64,000 nt of DNA from positions 30,043-94,042 of the forward strand of contig JACOQA010000004.1 in the NCBI GenBank assembly GCA_014297435.1. Direction: 5' to 3'. Of the stretch, positions 40,926-45,376 are shown one piece after another. The stretch is from Candidatus Nanohaloarchaea archaeon. Lineage in GTDB: Archaea; Nanohalarchaeota; Nanosalinia; Nanosalinales; Nanosalinaceae. Positions within the stretch are counted from its first letter, which is position 1, and each line of letters opens with the position of its first letter. The translations under genes were made by a program, and so were the position numbers. Under the pieces are notes generated by a model. That model did no database searches, had not been told where the DNA came from, and saw only the letters and a program-made list of their open reading frames with translations.

Positions 40926-40957
40926 TTATCTTCCGGACCAAAAAAATCCCTAACGTC

Positions 40958-41356
40958 TCAAGAGCCATCTCTAATAATGATAACTGCCAAGAAAATTGTT
41001 GATATCAGACCCAGGAAAGGTCTGAGTGGCTCTATATAAGCCAGTATAGTTGAACTGGAGAGAAGAGCTAGTAAAACTATATTACATACCGGGCATCCGA
41101 ATGCAAGAAAACCTGTAACTCCTCCTAATGCAGCAAATCTTTTATCCAGTGTACTACATTTTTCCTGCCCGAAGTATACTGCTGCAAGCACAGAAGTTGT
41201 CAAAAGAAAGAAATAATCAAGAAGAGTAATAGGAACCATTCTAACGTAGAGCGGATTTGGGATTAATCCAGTAGTTAGACCTGTAGATAGGAAAAAGACA
41301 ATACCGGCAATTAAACCCGTCAAAAGATTGAATTCATCGATGATTTCTAGATCCAT
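40958..41356 (-). CDS. Integral membrane protein with intramembrane CPVC motif (paralogous module to the C-terminus of 41367..41897)
   Basis: Four hydrophobic segments. GFLAFGCPVCNIVLLALL lies within a TM segment. An extra Cys occurs in EKCST. Confidence 0.5.
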   Translation of the reverse strand: MDLEIIDEFNLLTGLIAGIVFFLSTGLTTGLIPNPLYVRMVPITLLDYFFLLTTSVLAAVYFGQEKCSTLDKRFAALGGVTGFLAFGCPVCNIVLLALLSSSTILAYIEPLRPFLGLISTIFLAVIIIRDGS

Positions 41357-41366
41357 AATCTCTAAC

Positions 41367-41897
41367 CTAGATGCTACAGGTTTCAGGGTTTCCAGTCCTA
41401 GTTATAAGAACTACCAGCAGCAACACGCCACCCAACCTTAGCAGGTTACCTCCGAACGGCATCGAGGCAAGAACACCGCCGAAACCGAGGAGCGACATCA
41501 CCCCTACCCCGCATGAGGCGCATCCGCCCGCAATAAAACCGGGTATAGCACCCAGGCTGCTGAGATCTACTCGGTTCATTTTCAATTGAATTACTGTGTT
41601 TGTCATCGTTACACCGACAAGTACTGAGAAACTCGCGGTCAGCATTAATCCTGCATATCCTGTGTTCATTATCAAGCCGGTTAGACGGGTTGTGAAGGCG
41701 ATACCCCAGTACTGAATCCCGGAAGAAAGCATCTGAACCGAGTAAGCCGGATTAGCGGAAAAAATACTGAATAGAAAGGTGGCTAGAGCCACTGTTAAAG
41801 TGGCAAATGCCCTCTTTTTATCAGCCACCGCTCCTTTCAAACCCTGGAAAAGTTGCCTCCTCCAGTCAGCCGGATTTATCTTTATCGCGAAACCCAT
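41367..41897 (-). CDS. Integral membrane protein with intramembrane CASC motif
   Basis: Five to six hydrophobic segments. GFIAGGCASCGVGVMSLLGFGG. A terminal Cys occurs in PETCSI. It is separated by 4 and 10 nt from the flanking genes on the same strand. Confidence 0.5.
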   Translation of the reverse strand: MGFAIKINPADWRRQLFQGLKGAVADKKRAFATLTVALATFLFSIFSANPAYSVQMLSSGIQYWGIAFTTRLTGLIMNTGYAGLMLTASFSVLVGVTMTNTVIQLKMNRVDLSSLGAIPGFIAGGCASCGVGVMSLLGFGGVLASMPFGGNLLRLGGVLLLVVLITRTGNPETCSI

Positions 41898-41901
41898 GTT
41901 A

Positions 41902-42723
41902 TCACTTCATCCACTGGTCTCTTCTCTCAAACAGCTCGTCGTGGTAATCCCAGTAACTGTCCTGCTCATGTTCGTAGACACAGTTGGCTGCCTGATGTGC
42001 CATCGGTCCGTTCGGATGTAGCTGTGGAACCGGATAGTCCTTCGAGATAAGCTTGACCTTGCCTGTATCTACATACTTGCTTTCTAGGTTGCTTGCGATA
42101 TTCATCTGGTCGATAGGGGTTCTTGATGAAGCATCAATCCCCTGCCATTCCGCGCAGAACGGACATCCGAACTCGTTGTATTCTACGACTTTTATTGAAG
42201 CATTCTCACTTCCTTTGCTTGGTTCTCCCTCTAACTCGATGCCCTCAAGACTGGTCAGATTTCCAGGTTTGTCGCTTTCTACTTTGTTTATGGCTTGATC
42301 GAATCTTGAAAGTGGCTGTGCGCCAGTAATTTTCACGAATCCTTTTTCCCTGTTTCCTACGAAGAATGTTGGTGTTCCGAAGCTCCCGATGTTTTGAACC
42401 GCTTTATTTCTGTCCTCTATAGCTTCCTGGTTGTCTGAGTTTTTGTAGCACTGCATAACTTGATCTGTATCAAGCTCAAGATCGTTGGAGATTTGCGTGA
42501 AAACCTCTTCAGGGCTCTGACTATCAGCGTTGCCGCTTGAACCATCTGATTTATCTGAACCTATGTCCGTGTTTCCCTGTGGAGAGTTAGTTCCCTGTTG
42601 GGATGAAACACTCATGGTTCCTGCTGCGAATCCCCCTAAACCGCCAAGAACTAATCCCAGTACTAGAGAGGTTATGACTGCTTGGCGCGTGGTAAATTCC
42701 AGAGTTATATCATCTTCACTCAT
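41902..42723 (-). CDS. Membrane-anchored DsbA/BdbD-like thiol:disulfide oxidoreductase with apparently circularly permuted domain order
   Basis: N-terminal TM segment and S/G/Q-rich linker. The cis-Pro loop FGTPTFFVGN (nt ~42358..42378) precedes the active site FGCPFCAEW (CPFC at 42154..42165). The helical insert ...SYWDYHDELFERRDQW ends the protein. Confidence 0.7.
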   Translation of the reverse strand: MSEDDITLEFTTRQAVITSLVLGLVLGGLGGFAAGTMSVSSQQGTNSPQGNTDIGSDKSDGSSGNADSQSPEEVFTQISNDLELDTDQVMQCYKNSDNQEAIEDRNKAVQNIGSFGTPTFFVGNREKGFVKITGAQPLSRFDQAINKVESDKPGNLTSLEGIELEGEPSKGSENASIKVVEYNEFGCPFCAEWQGIDASSRTPIDQMNIASNLESKYVDTGKVKLISKDYPVPQLHPNGPMAHQAANCVYEHEQDSYWDYHDELFERRDQWMK

Positions 42724-42872
42724 TTTGAACCACCGGTATTCACTACATATGGTTTTGAAATAGCTTCTCTGAACTCGATCAGAAGATCTGGTATCATATC
42801 GATACTAGATATCCGAACGATATTAAAGGCCAAAGTGTAGTTGGTGATACATGGTTTCGAGGTCGATACACT

Positions 42873-43247
42873 ATGTCTAAAAACCAGGGTAGAATCCCGG
42901 TCTGGTGCAAGACAGAGGAATGGTGCGCACTCAAATCCACATCCAAGATCCTGGGTCACAAATGGGTTCCGGCCATAATATACCACCTTCACGACAATGA
43001 AGGTCTAAGGTTCTCACAGATACAGGAAGAGGTTGGGGGAATCACCAACAAAACCTTGAGCGACAACCTCGACAGGATGCAGGACCAAGGAATAGTAAAC
43101 AGAGAAGTGGAAAACGAGAAGCCGGTTAAGATAACTTATGAGTTGACTGAGTTTGGTGAAAAACTAGTACCTCTCATCGAGGAAATGATCTCATGGGGTC
43201 AGGACAACCTCAGAGAGGGCGAGAAAGAAGAAGCCTGGGTAAAATGA
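42873..43247 (+). CDS. HxlR (DUF24/MarR-like) family winged-helix transcriptional regulator
   Basis: CALKSTSKILGHKWVPAIIYHL...LRFSQIQEEVGGITNKTLSDNLDRMQDQGIVNREV...ITYELTEFG is the HxlR signature, including the N-terminal Cys. Confidence 0.8.
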   Translation: MSKNQGRIPVWCKTEEWCALKSTSKILGHKWVPAIIYHLHDNEGLRFSQIQEEVGGITNKTLSDNLDRMQDQGIVNREVENEKPVKITYELTEFGEKLVPLIEEMISWGQDNLREGEKEEAWVK

Positions 43248-43296
43248 AGTAACAAAATGATCCTCCGGTTGACCATGAAGTATAAACGACAGTAAA

Positions 43297-43539
43297 TTGT
43301 ATTTTGTCTTTATGGAAGAAAACGTAGGAGATACCGACAGCTTGGTCAGAATTGTAGTTGGAGCGGTTGCAGGTCTACTATCATTAGGAATACTGGCGGA
43401 CGTACTGCCAGCAAGTATGAACCTACCGGAGATCGCATCACCGATACTAGGAATCATAGCAATCGCACTACTTGCCACAGGATTCACCAGCAAATGTGGG
43501 CTTTACTCCGCTCTCGGTATCAACACCAGCGAAAAATAA
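43297..43539 (+). CDS. DUF2892 (YgaP-like) small membrane protein
   Basis: LVRIVVGAVAGLLSLGIL...TGFTSKCGLYSALGINT matches the DUF2892 pattern ending in C-x-x-Y-x-x-x-G-I. An alternative start is MEENVGD. Confidence 0.55.
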   Translation: MYFVFMEENVGDTDSLVRIVVGAVAGLLSLGILADVLPASMNLPEIASPILGIIAIALLATGFTSKCGLYSALGINTSEK

Positions 43540-43602
43540 TTTTCATCTATCTTTTTTCTATTTCTTTCATAATACATTCTACAGAATTTTTTCTCCAAAG
43601 GA

Positions 43603-43609
43603 TTATACC
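43603..43609 (+). promoter_or_regulatory. TATA-like box TTATACC, 29 nt before the ATG at 43632
   Basis: Recurrent spacing. Confidence 0.3.
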
Positions 43610-43631
43610 TCTCCCGACCTAATAATGGTCT

Positions 43632-43889
43632 ATGTCTAAGAAACTTCTGAAAATGGAGAAACGGATGTCCAGAGAGGAGATCTCTGAAAAGCTTTCAAGA
43701 ATTGCCGAGGGAGTTGAAAATGGAGAAGTGAAACTTTCCTCAGGAAACGATTCAGTGAATCTGCATCCTGGAGAGAATCCTGAGTTCGAACTCGAAGTTG
43801 AGGAGGAGAATGACGGTGATATCTCACTTGAGATAGAGATAGAATGGAATCCGGAAAAAGAAAAAAGGGAAGATATTGAGATAGGCTAG
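43632..43889 (+). CDS. Amphi-Trp domain protein
   Basis: SREEISEKLSRIAEGVENGEVKLSSGNDSVNLHPGENPEFELEVEEEN...LEIEIEW fits the amphi-Trp family pattern and size. Confidence 0.55.
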   Translation: MSKKLLKMEKRMSREEISEKLSRIAEGVENGEVKLSSGNDSVNLHPGENPEFELEVEEENDGDISLEIEIEWNPEKEKREDIEIG

Positions 43890-43898
43890 TGGAGAGCT

Positions 43899-44084
43899 CT
43901 AATCCAATAATCTATCATATATTTTCTCAGGCGGGCAGAAACCTGTAAATGAACTCTGCAACAGGTTGAAACCTGCGAACGCATCAATAAGGTAAAAGTA
44001 ATCGTTCACGAACCATCCAAGCAGGAAACCTGCCAGGATTACTGTTCCTGCCAGTCTTCTGACGAACTGTTTTTTCTGCATCAT
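43899..44084 (-). CDS. DUF2892 (YgaP-like) small membrane protein
   Basis: RRLAGTVILAGFLLGW...FAGFNLLQSSFTGFCPPEKIY. A 4-nt overlap with the upstream gene suggests co-translation with the exporter operon. Confidence 0.6.
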   Translation of the reverse strand: MMQKKQFVRRLAGTVILAGFLLGWFVNDYFYLIDAFAGFNLLQSSFTGFCPPEKIYDRLLD

Positions 44085-45376
44085 TCTTCACCTCCAGAAT
44101 TCTCTTCTACAGGTTTTCGAAATCTATACTGGTAAACCGAGCCCAGAACGAGCAAAAGCGTTGCCAGCACGCCTACATAGATAAGTGGAGACTGTGTCCT
44201 TCCTGTGAGTTCTAGATCTGTTTCTTCGGTAAATGTATAAACCGAGTTATCTCCTTCCTCACTATCACCGTTAGCTCTGAGCTGTATCTTGATCTGGTGA
44301 GTTTTCAGGTTGGCTGATCTATCAGCAGAGATCTTCAACACAGCTTCTCCTGTATCTCCAGTCTCTATCCCACCTATGTAGTTTGAGCGGTCTTCCAGAC
44401 TGAAGGGCTGGGTTCTTTCCGCGATCATTCTTACAGTTACCGACTCTGCATCCTGTCCTCCTACGTTCTCCACCTGAAGATGAAGTTGTTCTGTTCCCCC
44501 GGCTTTCATTCCTTTCTCTGCATTAACCAGCTCGAGATCAGGTCTGCCTTCAACCCTCAAAGGCACCTCAAGTTTCTTCGAGTACCTGTTGCCAGAAGTG
44601 TCCTCGTAAGTTGTCTTCAACCCAATCTGATGTAGTCCAGCCGAAAGATCCTCATCAAGATCCATTACTAGTGTTCTCTCCGTTGACTCTCCTTCACCCA
44701 ATCTGTTGATGTAGAACTTCTCATCCTTCGAATAGGCTGGTGCGATTCCCTCCGGCGTCTCCGGTCTAATCTCTACCTTTTCGATAGGTTTGTTCCCTGT
44801 GTTTGTGTATCTGATATGTGTTTCAACGTAGTCATCTCCTGGTCTTGGAGTTTTGGGGTCGGTCTTGACGACATTGCTTGAAATGTCGACTCCTTCATTA
44901 TCGACAGGCATGGAGAACTCTCTAATCACTCTAACGTTTGATTTTCCGTTCTGTGTGTTGATCTCTATGGGTTCACCGTTCTCCAAGTACTGGATATGTA
45001 GTTCGAAATCGTACATACCTGTTGGAGCACCAGAATCTATTTTTACCTGGTAGCGTTGATTCCAGACGGCTTCAGGATAGAGGAATCCGATAGAATCGTC
45101 TCTGTCATCCTCTATCGTGACGTGCTCTCTTGCCAGACGGTTATCCGGTTTGAGAACCACTTTCAGCTTTCTATCCTCATCCCAGTTTTTACCAGGATAG
45201 TTGTTTTCATGCATGTTGGCAGAGATGTTTACTCTGTCTCCTGCAGAAATGAATCCGGGATCGAAGCTTACTCCATCGAGTTTTGGAGCTCCTGAAGCAG
45301 CGCCTATAGAGATTGCGGCTATTGAAATTGTGATTGCAAGTTTGAAAGTTGTCGTGTGTGTAGTTGTGTTTGTCAT
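44081..45376 (-). CDS. Secreted COG1361-type (S-layer-domain/CARDB-like) protein with C-terminal TM anchor
   Basis: Signal-like N-terminus, beta-rich repeats and a C-terminal IYVGVLATLLLVLGSVYQY TM segment. It sits immediately downstream of the MMPL genes, a known pairing in archaea. Confidence 0.6.
   Translation of the reverse strand: MTNTTTHTTTFKLAITISIAAISIGAASGAPKLDGVSFDPGFISAGDRVNISANMHENNYPGKNWDEDRKLKVVLKPDNRLAREHVTIEDDRDDSIGFLYPEAVWNQRYQVKIDSGAPTGMYDFELHIQYLENGEPIEINTQNGKSNVRVIREFSMPVDNEGVDISSNVVKTDPKTPRPGDDYVETHIRYTNTGNKPIEKVEIRPETPEGIAPAYSKDEKFYINRLGEGESTERTLVMDLDEDLSAGLHQIGLKTTYEDTSGNRYSKKLEVPLRVEGRPDLELVNAEKGMKAGGTEQLHLQVENVGGQDAESVTVRMIAERTQPFSLEDRSNYIGGIETGDTGEAVLKISADRSANLKTHQIKIQLRANGDSEEGDNSVYTFTEETDLELTGRTQSPLIYVGVLATLLLVLGSVYQYRFRKPVEENSGGEE

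What the first reader, a model, noticed from the sequence alone, without database searches (positions are those of the whole stretch)
40958..41897. Two adjacent membrane proteins with intramembrane CxxC motifs: candidate redox partners of the DsbA-like protein
Two polytopic membrane proteins lie immediately downstream of the DsbA-like gene, with 4-nt and 10-nt gaps on the same strand. Their last helices are clearly related. One reads GFIAGGCASCGVGVMSLLGFGGVLASMPFGGNLLRLGGVLLLVVLI...PETCSI. The other reads GFLAFGCPVCNIVLLALLSSSTILAYIEPLRPFLGLISTIFLAVII, with an upstream loop Cys in EKCST. Each therefore has a CxxC embedded in a G-rich TM segment plus one further Cys. I do not recognise them as DsbB, VKOR or CcdA/DsbD. 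In an organism with many secreted proteins and no obvious DsbB/VKOR in this window, they could form a two-subunit module that re-oxidises or reduces the extracytoplasmic DsbA-like protein. The alternative is a soft-metal (Hg/Cu/Cd) transporter.
Basis: partly seen in the sequence, partly recalled or inferred. Interest (0 to 1): 0.7.

Follow-up and report, generated by a model that had tools for sequence, protein, structure and literature searches.

The report
MerT-like cysteine-relay partners of DsbA
Two small membrane proteins encoded after a DsbA-like gene belong to a widespread, unannotated family distantly related to the mercury transporter MerT; the family is genetically tied to DsbA and CcdA and probably passes electrons (or a thiol-loving metal) across the membrane through cysteines.

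Summary
Three minus-strand genes form an operon: a DsbA-like gene (41902-42723), memA (41367-41897, 176 aa) and memB (40958-41356, 132 aa). The names memA and memB are mine. The gaps are 4 and 10 nt, and a T-run follows memB.

- **Relationship:** memA and memB are paralogues over their whole length (hhalign 95%).
- **Annotation:** neither matches Pfam, NCBIfam, PDB sequences or PDB folds. All relatives checked are named 'hypothetical'.
- **Size:** the memB family has about 1,100 clusters at 50% identity and occurs in at least 595 species genomes.
- **Cysteines and topology:** the in-membrane CxxC is invariant. The positive-inside rule gives four helices with both ends inside. The third Cys lies on the cytoplasmic side in 98% of memB relatives, and none lies in an outer loop. 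This argues against a DsbB/VKOR-type oxidase.
- **MerT link:** memB's last two helices are a remote MerT homologue. No MerA, MerP or MerR gene is nearby.
- **DsbA link:** a CPFC-type DsbA lies within 4 kb in 45 of 82 loci. Its coupled downstream slot holds memA in archaea and CcdA in Actinobacteria. One CcdA::memB fusion exists.

Best reading, at about 0.4: a MerT-derived cysteine relay that supplies reducing equivalents to the DsbA-like protein. Soft-metal hand-off remains a live rival.

The DsbA-like protein here is a natural circular permutant.

The parts
41902..42723 (-). Membrane-anchored DsbA-like thioredoxin-fold protein (273 aa). The active site CPFC is encoded at 42154-42165. It is circularly permuted: residues 68-150 are the usual C-terminal part with the cis-Pro GTPTF, and residues 156-273 are the usual N-terminal part with CPFC.
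   Evidence: Pfam Thioredoxin_4 matches residues 166-272 to profile positions 4-94, and DSBA matches residues 72-145 to profile positions 122-190. BLASTP against the normal-order orthologue L008 gives two swapped segments of 73% and 61% identity. The protein is collinear with L007 and with the Ca. Nanohalobium constans protein.
41367..41897 (-). memA (176 aa), a four-helix membrane protein predicted with both ends inside. The in-membrane GCASCG motif has its CASC encoded at 41511-41522. The invariant cytoplasmic tail Cys C174 (PETCSI) is encoded at 41376-41378.
   Evidence: invariant C126, C129, P171, C174. (K+R about 10.5 per sequence on the inside against 1.2 on the outside). (directly downstream of DsbA in 21 archaeal loci, 14 of them with a 4-nt overlap).
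40958..41356 (-). memB (132 aa), a paralogue of memA with the same predicted topology. The GCPVCN motif has its CPVC encoded at 41084-41095. The loop Cys C67 (EKCST), predicted cytoplasmic, is encoded at 41156-41158. The TM3-loop-TM4 hairpin is remotely related to MerT TM1-loop-TM2.
   Evidence: (family size and spread). (MerT homology). (cysteine positions and topology).
40940..40946 (-). T7 run 11 nt after the memB stop codon, a likely archaeal terminator that closes the three-gene operon.
   Evidence: Read directly from the sequence. The terminator function is inferred.
42724..42872 (.). 149-bp divergent intergenic region between the DsbA-like gene and the HxlR gene. It presumably holds both promoters and an operator.
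   Evidence: One weak 9-nt inverted repeat lies at 42831-42839 / 42867-42875. Any regulatory function is inferred only.
42873..43247 (+). HxlR-family transcription regulator, transcribed divergently from the operon.
   Evidence: Pfam HxlR E 9e-25. Its closest NCBIfam models are the redox regulators RrpA/RrpB, below their cut-offs. The same divergent arrangement is conserved in L007, L008 and Ca. Nanohalobium constans.
43297..43539 (+). Small YgaP-like_TM (DUF2892) membrane protein with one Cys (KCGLY).
   Evidence: Pfam PF11127 E 7e-17. An orthologue sits in the same place in L008 at 82% identity, and a YgaP-like_TM gene also sits there in Ca. Nanohalobium constans.
43899..44084 (-). Second small YgaP-like_TM (DUF2892) protein (FCPPE).
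   Evidence: Pfam PF11127 E 5e-7. Conserved in L008 at 72% identity.

Best explanation
memA and memB are small four-helix membrane proteins of one unannotated family. Their CxxC-bearing C-terminal hairpin derives from the same ancestor as the MerT mercury-transporter hairpin.

Each carries three cysteines. A CxxC sits at a break in helix 3, about mid-membrane. One further Cys sits on the cytoplasmic face, either in the tail after helix 4 or in the loop before helix 3.

I propose they act as a transmembrane cysteine relay serving the membrane-anchored CPFC DsbA-like protein encoded just upstream. The proposed steps are:
1. Reducing equivalents from cytoplasmic thioredoxin are taken up by the cytoplasmic Cys.
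2. They pass to the in-membrane CxxC.
3. They pass on to the DsbA-like CPFC outside the cell.

This would keep the DsbA-like protein reduced, so it could work as a disulfide reductase, isomerase or thiol-repair enzyme at the cell surface. The job is the one CcdA/DsbD does, done by an unrelated protein, in a quinone-independent system that is probably stress-induced (HxlR).

memA is the dedicated partner, being translationally coupled to DsbA. memB is an accessory paralogue that may pair with memA.

Shown here: gene order, paralogy, Cys conservation, remote MerT homology and synteny. Inferred: the topology (positive-inside rule), all the redox chemistry and its direction, any heteromer, and the regulation.
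For: 1. Linkage to DsbA. A DsbA-like gene lies within 4 kb of memB in 45 of 82 loci. That is 3/3 Nanohaloarchaea, 27/39 Halobacteria, 6/14 other archaea and 8/17 Actinomycetota. 56 of 82 loci have DsbA, CcdA, TlpA or Trx. Almost all of these DsbA-likes share the CPFC active site.
2. Displacement in place. The gene directly downstream of DsbA is memA in 21 archaeal loci (14 with a 4-nt overlap). It is CcdA in 8 actinobacterial loci (4 with a 4-nt and 2 with an 8-nt overlap). CcdA is an established conduit for reductant.
3. Fusion. Micromonospora WP_216933193 carries CcdA (residues 1-286) fused to memB (residues 297-439).
4. Cysteine geometry. The CxxC is invariant. Counts per sequence are 2.0 Cys in helix 3, 0.44 plus 0.88 Cys in the two predicted cytoplasmic segments of memB, and 1.0 Cys in the memA tail. 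Outer loops hold about 0.00-0.01. 185 of 189 memB relatives have a cytoplasmic-side Cys even though its position moves.
5. Topology. K+R per sequence is about 10 on the inside against about 1.2-1.9 on the outside in both families.
6. The AF2 model breaks memB helix 3 just before C88, so the CPVC caps a helix N-terminus as in thioredoxin-fold active sites (moderate confidence).
7. No quinone sink. The cultured relative lacks all respiratory complexes but has Trx and TrxR (PMC7443923). Relatives also occur in DPANN and CPR genomes.
8. Stress context. A divergent HxlR regulator is conserved, with OsmC next to it in Ca. Nanohalobium constans. Halobacterial loci add TlpA-CcdA, Trx and ArsR-type regulators.
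Against: - No biochemistry exists for any member of the family.
- The only detectable homologue, MerT, moves Hg(II), not electrons.
- In Actinobacteria memB coexists with CcdA. If both reduce the same DsbA, that looks redundant and fits a complementary role better.
- memB stands alone, with no thiol-redox neighbour, in most Chloroflexota loci and in about half of the actinobacterial loci.
- Heavy-metal P-type ATPases (8 to 10 of 82 loci, depending on the length filter), a cupredoxin gene and ArsR regulators appear near some members.
- The AF2 models are only moderate (pLDDT about 70), and the memA CxxC region is below 50.
- The topology is inferred from charge bias alone.
- The 82 loci are the best-scoring of at least 595 and are biased towards haloarchaea.
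Confidence: 0.4

Rival explanations
1. Soft-metal hand-off, like MerP to MerT. The reduced CPFC DsbA-like protein captures a thiophilic metal (Hg(II), Cu(I), Ag(I) or Cd(II)) outside the cell. It passes the metal to the in-membrane CxxC of memB/memA, which passes it to the cytoplasmic Cys and then to a cytoplasmic acceptor. In bacteria CcdA (and perhaps memA in archaea) only keeps the DsbA-like thiols reduced.
For: - memB's hairpin is a remote MerT homologue. Pfam MerT gives E 1.2e-4 and 2.4e-4 on exactly the TM1-TM2-Cys region, and 8 of 21 members give weak hits.
- hhalign gives 84% probability, E 7.6e-6.
- A memB HMM scores real MerTs at 15-27 bits, against at most 8 bits in 2,000 shuffles.
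- The layout is the same: a Cys pair in the first helix, an EPxRP outer loop, then a basic stretch and a cytoplasmic Cys.
- This reading explains why memB and CcdA coexist and fuse, since their roles would be complementary.
- Metal genes lie near some members: a Cu P-type ATPase with YHS/HMA domains, a cupredoxin, NicO and ArsR.
Against: - No MerA, MerP, MerR or MerB is in the window or next to relatives.
- Neighbouring flavoprotein disulfide reductases look like CoA-disulfide reductase or dihydrolipoyl dehydrogenase and fall below the MerA cut-off.
- Importing a toxic metal without a cytoplasmic sink would be harmful, especially in genomes of about 1 Mb.
- mer transporters have been reported absent from Archaea (PMC3466566).
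- memA, the gene actually coupled to DsbA, shows no direct MerT signal.
- P-type ATPases occur in only about 10% of loci.
Confidence: 0.25
2. Relay of another thiophilic cargo, such as sulfane sulfur (persulfide or polysulfide), between the cell surface and cytoplasmic sulfur-detoxifying enzymes. The same Cys chain would be used.
For: - Halobacterial and actinobacterial loci often carry rhodanese-MBL (persulfide-dioxygenase-like) genes. The count is 12 to 14 of 82 loci, depending on the length filter.
- They also carry CoA-disulfide reductase, TauE, DUF302 and ArsR-type regulators.
- The window and its nanohaloarchaeal relatives keep two YgaP-like_TM (DUF2892) genes beside the operon.
Against: - These genes are absent from the window itself.
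- There is no precedent for a DsbA-like protein or a MerT-like protein carrying sulfane sulfur.
- These neighbours are less frequent than DsbA or CcdA.
Confidence: 0.1
3. A DsbB/VKOR-like oxidase. memA/memB would re-oxidise the DsbA-like protein and pass the electrons to a membrane acceptor.
For: - Tight operon coupling to a DsbA-like gene.
- A four-helix protein with a CxxC in a helix, superficially like VKOR.
- No DsbB or VKOR was seen in the window, although I ran no dedicated search for them.
Against: - There is no sequence or fold similarity to DsbB or VKOR.
- There is no Cys in any outer loop, and the extra Cys is cytoplasmic.
- The closest cultured relative has no respiratory complexes to act as an electron sink.
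- The gene slot is shared with CcdA, which is a reductant carrier.
Confidence: 0.07
4. There is no direct functional partnership. The proteins are membrane proteins of unrelated function that merely travel with stress-island genes.
For: - memB occurs alone in many Chloroflexota and some actinobacterial loci.
- Many halobacterial copies lie on plasmids.
Against: - 4-nt overlaps with DsbA recur in 14 loci.
- The linkage spans two domains of life.
- A CcdA fusion exists.
- The partner consistently carries the CPFC active site.
Confidence: 0.05

Closest known systems
MerT (and the MerT/MerF-type mercury transporter hairpin), Pfam PF02411
   Same: It is the only detectable homologue. memB TM3-loop-TM4-tail aligns with MerT TM1-loop-TM2-Cys76. 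Shared features are the G-G start, a Cys pair about mid-helix, an EP(Y/L)RP outer loop, and a basic stretch followed by a cytoplasmic Cys. Both have the logic of a cysteine relay running from an outside CxxC protein, through in-membrane cysteines, to cytoplasmic cysteines.
   Different: - The motif is CxxC (CPxC or CASC) rather than vicinal CC.
- The hairpin is the C-terminal half of a four-helix protein, whose N-terminal hairpin has its own conserved outer motif (TxLIPNPxYxRM).
- Scores are below the Pfam cut-off (22.6 against 32.9 bits).
- memA shows no direct MerT signal.
- The partner genes are DsbA, CcdA and TlpA, not MerP, MerA and MerR.
CcdA / DsbD membrane domain (PF02683)
   Same: It occupies the same translationally coupled slot downstream of the CPFC DsbA gene. 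It has cysteines buried in the membrane at helix breaks. memA/memB are proposed to carry reductant from the cytoplasm to an outside thioredoxin-fold protein in the same way. One natural CcdA::memB fusion exists.
   Different: There is no sequence or fold similarity. CcdA/DsbD has 6-8 helices against four here. It has one Cys in each of two helices, whereas memA/memB have a CxxC in one helix plus a cytoplasmic Cys.
DsbB and VKOR (quinone-linked DsbA oxidases)
   Same: Small four-helix membrane proteins encoded next to DsbA-like genes. VKOR also has a CxxC at a helix end.
   Different: Both Cys pairs of DsbB and VKOR face outside and work with a quinone. Here there is no outer-loop Cys, the third Cys is cytoplasmic, no homology is detectable, and the hosts include organisms without respiratory chains.
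Salmonella ScsABCD (suppressor of copper sensitivity)
   Same: The gene set is analogous: a DsbA-like protein (ScsC), a DsbD-like membrane reductase (ScsB), a TlpA-like protein (ScsD), and a small membrane protein whose CxxC is predicted to lie inside the membrane and whose function is unknown (ScsA) (PMC10907172). Halobacterial loci combine DsbA-memA, TlpA-CcdA and memB in the same way.
   Different: No homology between ScsA and memA/memB was shown, and NCBIfam and Pfam gave no hit. ScsA is predicted to have two helices or to be a lipoprotein. The regulation and the organisms differ.

Membership tests
MerT family (PF02411 / NCBIfam MerT, MerTP) | Sequence match above the curated family threshold | tested here: not met
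   Neither window protein hits Pfam MerT at E<=1. The only NCBIfam hit is MerTP at E 0.67, 9.5 bits against a cut-off of 180. The best relatives reach 21.5-22.6 bits against a cut-off of 32.9.
MerT family (PF02411 / NCBIfam MerT, MerTP) | Remote homology of the Cys-pair hairpin (TM with Cys pair, EPxRP outer loop, TM, cytoplasmic Cys) | tested here: met
   For memB: hhalign gives 84% probability, E 7.6e-6 over 61 columns. An HMM of 197 memB sequences scores real MerTs at 26.7, 20.4, 19.4 and 15.5 bits, against a maximum of 8.0 bits in 2,000 shuffles and below 0 for reversed sequences. For memA the link is only transitive, through memB.
MerT family (PF02411 / NCBIfam MerT, MerTP) | Vicinal Cys-Cys pair in the first helix and three transmembrane helices | tested here: not met
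   The motif is CxxC (CPVC 99, CPIC 46, CPTC 20 and others among 189 memB relatives; CASC in memA). Four helices are predicted.
MerT family (PF02411 / NCBIfam MerT, MerTP) | Genomic company of merR, merP and merA | tested here: not met
   tblastn with MerA, MerP, MerR and MerB found nothing in the window. In the loci it found only generic flavoprotein disulfide reductases and the HMA domains of ATPases. The flavoproteins fall below the MerA cut-off.
MerT family (PF02411 / NCBIfam MerT, MerTP) | Hg(II) uptake activity | not testable with these tools
   This needs uptake or hypersensitivity assays.
CcdA / DsbD_TM (PF02683) | Sequence match; 6-8 helices with one conserved Cys in each of two helices | tested here: not met
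   No Pfam hit for the window proteins or for 46 family members. An HMM built from neighbouring CcdA genes hits only the one fusion protein. There is no fold match.
CcdA / DsbD_TM (PF02683) | Transfers reductant to an extracytoplasmic thioredoxin-fold partner | not testable with these tools
   Only indirect support: the same coupled slot downstream of the CPFC DsbA gene and one fusion.
DsbB (PF02600) | Sequence or fold match; two Cys pairs in outer loops; quinone as electron acceptor | tested here: not met
   No Pfam, NCBIfam, PDB-sequence or Foldseek match. Outer loops hold 0.00-0.01 Cys per sequence. Quinone use cannot be tested here.
VKOR (PF07884) | Sequence or fold match; outer-loop Cys pair plus a CxxC at the outer end of a helix | tested here: not met
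   The same searches were negative. There is no outer-loop Cys pair, and the CxxC lies about mid-helix with a cytoplasmic third Cys.
DsbA-like thioredoxin fold (PF13462 / PF01323), for the upstream gene | Thioredoxin fold with a CxxC, a helical insertion and a cis-Pro loop | tested here: met
   Thioredoxin_4 E 3.4e-19 and DSBA E 9.5e-10. CPFC and GTPTF are both present, but in circularly permuted order.
ScsA (Scs system) | Homology to Salmonella ScsA | not tested
   No ScsA sequence was at hand. There is only a system-level analogy taken from PMC10907172. NCBIfam gave no hit for memA or memB.

The most novel reading that the evidence does not exclude
memA/memB would be a third, previously unrecognised kind of membrane partner for DsbA-type proteins, after DsbB/VKOR and DsbD/CcdA. 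It would be a quinone-independent transmembrane thiol-disulfide relay that evolved from the MerT-type cysteine hairpin. It would explain how surface DsbA-like proteins are recycled in organisms without respiratory quinones, such as Nanohaloarchaea, other DPANN archaea and CPR bacteria. It would also show that a metal-transport scaffold was re-used for electron transfer, or the reverse.
Probability: 0.3. Interest if true: 0.8.

Novelty: new variant of a known kind. Interest (0 to 1): 0.6.

Why it matters
Membrane partners of DsbA-type proteins are textbook knowledge: DsbB and VKOR for oxidation, DsbD and CcdA for reduction. Many genomes nevertheless encode DsbA-like proteins with no recognised partner.

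This work defines a sizeable family with these properties:
- It comprises about 1,100 clusters at 50% identity and occurs in at least 595 species genomes.
- It has no Pfam or NCBIfam model, and every member checked is named 'hypothetical'.
- It is coupled to one DsbA subtype (CPFC) across Archaea and Actinobacteria.
- It swaps places with CcdA and is once fused to it.
- It descends from the MerT mercury-transporter hairpin.

If it is a redox relay, it adds a new class of transmembrane electron conduit. It would also make the question of how quinone-free DPANN and CPR cells manage surface thiols directly testable. If it is a metal relay, it extends Mer-type transporters into Archaea, where they were reported absent, with a DsbA-like protein standing in for MerP.

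Either way, clear experiments follow. A cultured host (Ca. Nanohalobium constans), genetically tractable haloarchaea and Streptomyces all carry the genes.

The naturally circularly permuted DsbA is a separate small point of interest for protein evolution.

Tried and rejected
- **Family scans:** Pfam and NCBIfam scans of memA and memB gave nothing usable. Per-member Pfam scans of both families gave only weak MerT hits for memB relatives.
- **PDB sequence search:** profile searches with both families found nothing.
- **Structure:** AF2 models have pLDDT of about 70. Foldseek against the PDB gave a best E of 1.6 for memA and 5.4 for memB, with no DsbB, VKOR, CcdA or MerF match. The models are only moderate, so the absence of a fold match is weak evidence.
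- **Other CcdA fusions:** the long 'memB' ORFs in high-GC loci are over-extended starts, not fusions. Only P0271 is a true fusion.
- **CC86:** the small haloarchaeal two-helix 'CC' protein encoded next to memB is not detectably related to MerT, memA or memB by hhalign.
- **Mercury context:** there is no MerA, MerP, MerR or MerB. Neighbouring flavoproteins are not MerA.
- **Recurrent methyltransferase neighbour:** it is a generic class I SAM enzyme with no specific assignment.
- **Streptomyces locus L070:** a Pfam scan of its flanking genes added only a rhodanese-MBL gene and COX1.
- **Literature:** I found no paper on this family, on DsbA in Nanohaloarchaea, or on MerT-like proteins linked to DsbA. 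A search of the held library for a circularly permuted DsbA also found nothing.
- **Supplements:** the supplement of the Ca. Nanohalobium paper is not held as text, so proteome detection could not be checked.
- **Not possible here:** AlphaFold-Multimer, and genome-wide presence/absence of DsbB, VKOR, CcdA and MerA.
Full report
**What is there.** The window carries three co-oriented minus-strand genes:
- a DsbA-like gene at 41902-42723 (273 aa);
- an ORF of 176 aa at 41367-41897, which I call memA;
- an ORF of 132 aa at 40958-41356, which I call memB.

The junctions are TGA-taac-ATG and TAG-gttagagatt-ATG, and a T7 run follows the memB stop. This looks like one operon. The source is a Nanohaloarchaea MAG: the identical proteins are H8Z69_04870 and H8Z69_04865. 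The closest named relative of memA is Ca. Nanohalobium constans LC1Nh_0813 at 74% identity.

**The genes are real, and they are paralogues.** memA has 119 relatives and memB has 50 in the word-indexed search. An exhaustive HMMER search with the memB alignment finds 1,110 representatives of 50%-identity clusters at E<=1e-3, and 691 at E<=1e-10. These span Nanohaloarchaea, many Halobacteria (often on plasmids), Woesearchaeota, Iainarchaeum, Methanosarcinales, Streptomyces, Rhodococcus, Micromonospora, Bifidobacterium, Acidimicrobiales, Chloroflexota, Bipolaricaulota and a CPR bacterium.

The two window proteins match by BLASTP on the CxxC helix (E 9e-6). They match by profile-profile comparison over 127 columns (95% probability, E 3e-8). 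This includes a shared outer-loop motif after helix 1: NPxYSxQM in memA and LIPNPxYxRM in memB. Each family's HMM also finds the other gene in the window, and no further copy exists there.

**No known family claims them.**
- Pfam and NCBIfam give no usable hit for either protein.
- Profile searches of PDB sequences give nothing.
- AF2 models have pLDDT 70.6 and 70.8, and the memA CxxC region is below 50. They find no fold match in the PDB (best E 1.6 and 5.4).
- Every public copy I looked up is named 'hypothetical protein'.

**Cysteines and topology.** In memA, G-C126-A-S-C129-G, P171 and C174 are invariant across 25 diverse sequences. In memB, C88 and C91 (GCPVCN) are invariant, as are T29, L31, P33 and R39. 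The memB loop Cys C67 is conserved only among close relatives. Across 189 relatives, however, 185 carry at least one Cys in the loop before helix 3 (83 relatives) or in the tail after helix 4 (109 relatives). Only 3 have a Cys between the CxxC and the end of helix 4.

I aligned 197 memB-type and 119 memA-type sequences to their HMMs and counted charges by segment.

| Family | K+R per sequence: N-terminus + loop 2-3 + C-tail | K+R per sequence: loops 1-2 and 3-4 |
|---|---|---|
| memB | about 10.3 | 1.9 |
| memA | about 10.5 | 1.2 |

By the positive-inside rule, which is established knowledge, both families have four helices with both ends in the cytoplasm. Cysteines per sequence are 2.00 in helix 3. 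In the predicted cytoplasmic segments they are 0.44 plus 0.88 for memB and 1.00 for the memA tail. In the outer loops they are 0.00-0.01.

So each protein has a CxxC about mid-membrane plus a cytoplasm-facing Cys whose position is free to move. In the memB model the CxxC sits at a helix break just before C88. This is not the DsbB/VKOR design, in which both Cys pairs face outside.

**A remote relative: MerT.** Eight of 21 memB relatives give weak Pfam MerT hits. Two longer relatives reach E 1.2e-4 and 2.4e-4, covering MerT profile positions 7-83. These positions are helix 1 with the Cys pair, the outer loop, helix 2 and the cytoplasmic Cys.

I confirmed that my recalled Tn501-type MerT sequence is real (100% identical to an annotated merT). 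I fetched four divergent MerT-family genes and aligned them. Results:
- hhalign of memB against MerT gives 84% probability, E 7.6e-6 over 61 columns. It aligns memB helix 3, the EPLRP loop, helix 4 and the tail with MerT helix 1, EPYRP, helix 2 and Cys76.
- An HMM of 197 memB sequences scores four real MerTs at 26.7, 20.4, 19.4 and 15.5 bits. The maximum among 2,000 composition-preserving shuffles is 8.0 bits, and reversed sequences score below 0.
- memA shows no direct MerT signal. It is linked only through memB.

I therefore regard the C-terminal hairpin of this family as a diverged MerT-type hairpin. It is not a MerT family member. The scores are below the curated cut-off. The motif is CxxC rather than CC. 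There are four helices rather than three. No MerA, MerP, MerR or MerB gene lies in the window or beside relatives, and the neighbouring flavoproteins fall below the MerA cut-off.

**Genomic company.** I extracted all ORFs within 4 kb of memB in 82 non-redundant loci and clustered them without prior labels. I then named the cluster representatives with Pfam and NCBIfam. After applying length filters, the counts are as follows.

| Neighbour within 4 kb | Loci (of 82) |
|---|---|
| DsbA-like | 45 |
| memA | 33 |
| CcdA | 25 |
| TlpA-like | 9 |
| Thioredoxin | 11 |
| Any of DsbA, CcdA, TlpA, Trx | 56 |

By group, DsbA is present in 3/3 Nanohaloarchaea, 27/39 Halobacteria, 6/14 other archaea, 8/17 Actinomycetota and 1/9 other bacteria. 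A genome has only a handful of DsbA-like genes, so a chance neighbour rate would be around 1%. That figure is my rough estimate, not a computed value.

Nearly all linked DsbA-likes, archaeal and actinobacterial, carry the active site CPFC.

The gene directly downstream of DsbA on the same strand is memA in 21 archaeal loci, 14 of them with a 4-nt overlap. It is CcdA in 8 actinobacterial loci, 4 with a 4-nt and 2 with an 8-nt overlap. Examples:
- Arthrobacter: DsbA-CcdA-memB.
- Halorarius: DsbA overlapping memA.
- A deep-sea archaeal MAG: cupredoxin, DsbA, a third CxxC paralogue, a 194-aa protein, then memB.
- A CPR bacterium: regulator, DsbA, memB.
- Micromonospora WP_216933193: a CcdA::memB fusion.

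Less frequent neighbours are ArsR-type regulators with DUF7521, rhodanese-MBL proteins, CoA-disulfide-reductase-like flavoproteins, DUF302, TauE, a SAM methyltransferase and heavy-metal P-type ATPases.

**Local regulation.** A divergent HxlR-family regulator (42873-43247) and two YgaP-like_TM (DUF2892) genes flank the operon. The same arrangement is kept in Ca. Nanosalina sp. VS9-1 and another nanohaloarchaeon. It is also kept in Ca. Nanohalobium constans, where an OsmC gene sits beside HxlR. HxlR-family regulators commonly sense oxidants or electrophiles. That is established knowledge; regulation of this operon is my inference.

**How it most likely works.** Shown here:
- an operon of a membrane-anchored CPFC thioredoxin-fold protein and one or two MerT-derived four-helix proteins;
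- an invariant in-membrane CxxC and a near-universal Cys on the predicted cytoplasmic side;
- gene-slot equivalence with CcdA, and one fusion to it.

From this I infer a transmembrane cysteine relay between the cytoplasm and the DsbA-like protein. I favour electrons as the cargo, running from thioredoxin to the cytoplasmic Cys, to the CxxC and then to CPFC. My reasons:
- CcdA is an established reductant conduit and takes memA's place in Actinobacteria.
- The cytoplasmic Cys makes sense for a relay that starts inside the cell.
- The closest cultured relative has no respiratory complexes to accept electrons but does have Trx and TrxR (PMC7443923).
- Importing a toxic metal without a sink would be harmful in a genome of about 1 Mb.

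The outcome would be a surface disulfide reductase, isomerase or thiol-repair system like ScsB/ScsC or DsbD/DsbC. The Salmonella Scs operon even includes ScsA, a small protein of unknown role whose CxxC is predicted to be membrane-embedded (PMC10907172). I give this reading about 0.4.

**The main rival.** The main rival, at about 0.25, keeps the MerT function. The DsbA-like protein would replace MerP and hand a soft metal to memB, with CcdA only keeping the DsbA-like protein reduced. This explains better why memB and CcdA coexist and fuse. It also fits the copper genes near some DPANN and Methanosarcinales members. It lacks any cytoplasmic sink in the loci I examined. It would also put Mer-type transporters in Archaea, where a survey found none (PMC3466566). 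A sulfane-sulfur cargo, a DsbB-like oxidase and 'no partnership at all' are less likely, for the reasons given under the rival explanations.

**On the 'two-subunit module'.** Pairs of paralogues recur: memA plus memB in Halobacteria and Nanohaloarchaea, and a third paralogue plus memB in DPANN. But Ca. Nanohalobium constans has DsbA-memA and no memB within 4 kb. Halorarius keeps DsbA-memA and memB far apart. An obligate heterodimer is therefore unlikely. memA looks like the dedicated DsbA partner in these archaea, and memB like an accessory or parallel unit.

**Side finding.** The DsbA-like protein is a natural circular permutant. Window residues 156-273 (with CPFC) match residues 69-186 of the normal-order Ca. 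Nanosalina orthologue at 73% identity. Window residues 68-150 (with the cis-Pro GTPTF) match its residues 189-271 at 61%. The permuted order is shared, collinearly, by an independent MAG (68% identity) and by cultured Ca. Nanohalobium constans. It is therefore not an assembly artefact and appears to be under selection.

**Caveats.**
- The topology rests on charge bias only.
- The AF2 models are of moderate confidence.
- ORF calling in the loci was naive (first start codon), and single-linkage clusters picked up antisense ORFs in high-GC genomes. I filtered these by length.
- The 82 loci are the best-scoring of at least 595 and over-represent haloarchaea.
- I could not run multimer prediction or whole-genome presence/absence profiles.

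**Verdict.** This is a new, unannotated branch of the MerT-type cysteine-hairpin proteins with a new architecture and new partners (CPFC-DsbA and CcdA). It is most likely a transmembrane cysteine relay. I score interest at 0.6 and rate novelty as a new variant of a known kind.

Noticed in passing
window 41902-42723 (-); also L007:4562-5422 and L090:3262-4071: The DsbA-like protein is a natural circular permutant. The usual C-terminal part (cis-Pro GTPTF) comes first and the usual N-terminal part (CPFC) comes last, compared with the normal-order orthologue in Ca. Nanosalina sp. VS9-1 (L008:4629-5447). The permuted order is shared by an independent MAG and by cultured Ca. Nanohalobium constans. 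A search of the held paper library found no report of a natural permuted DsbA.
   Followed up: partly
window 42873-44084; L008:3231-4476; L090:1992-3109: A conserved divergent cluster lies next to the operon: an HxlR regulator plus two small YgaP-like_TM (DUF2892) membrane proteins, each with one Cys. In Ca. Nanohalobium constans an OsmC gene sits between the HxlR gene and a DUF2892 gene. This suggests a small thiol- or oxidant-stress regulon.
   Followed up: partly
e.g. L021:6388-6648, L011:6388-6648, L016:6437-6697 (18 halobacterial loci): A small protein of about 86 aa with two helices is encoded directly downstream of memB. It has an invariant SLCC in helix 1 and a C-terminal Cys, so its architecture resembles MerF or MerE. 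It has no Pfam or NCBIfam hit and no hhalign signal to MerT, memA or memB.
   Followed up: partly
L003:3930-4379 and L039:4188-4658: DPANN and other archaeal loci carry a third paralogue type of about 150 aa. It has AQCPAC or VCC in helix 3 and a (K/R)(T/S)CSI motif in the preceding loop. The same 'CSI' motif ends memA (PETCSI), so the cytoplasmic Cys motif seems to have moved between the loop and the tail.
   Followed up: no
L003:4391-4975, L060:6-587, L049:4173-4754 (6 loci): A protein of about 194 aa with an N-terminal anchor and conserved HWH...HxHED motifs lies between the DsbA and memB genes in DPANN-type loci. It has no Pfam or NCBIfam hit. It may bind a metal.
   Followed up: no
L064:2319-2975, L048:6571-7170, L012:2129-2689, L007:3547-4098 (13 loci): A class I SAM methyltransferase recurs near memB in CPR, Methanosarcinales, Halobacteria and Nanohaloarchaea. 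NCBIfam gives only generic matches (UbiE-, BioC- or ArsM-like, all below their cut-offs).
   Followed up: partly
Halobacterial loci, e.g. L053:5224-5499 with the adjacent HTH gene: An ArsR-type HTH gene paired with a DUF7521 membrane protein is transcribed divergently from memB in about 22-24 loci. This may be a membrane-linked sensor and regulator pair.
   Followed up: no
L086:3066-3278 and L088:3071-3289: In true mer loci fetched as controls, a small 'GDCCVxC domain-containing (seleno)protein' follows merT/merP. It is unrelated to the finding but is another uncharacterised Cys-rich companion of Mer transporters.
   Followed up: no
window 44081-45376 (-): A 431-aa predicted secreted protein with a C-terminal membrane anchor lies just beyond the DUF2892 gene and is co-oriented with it. 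It was not analysed.
   Followed up: no
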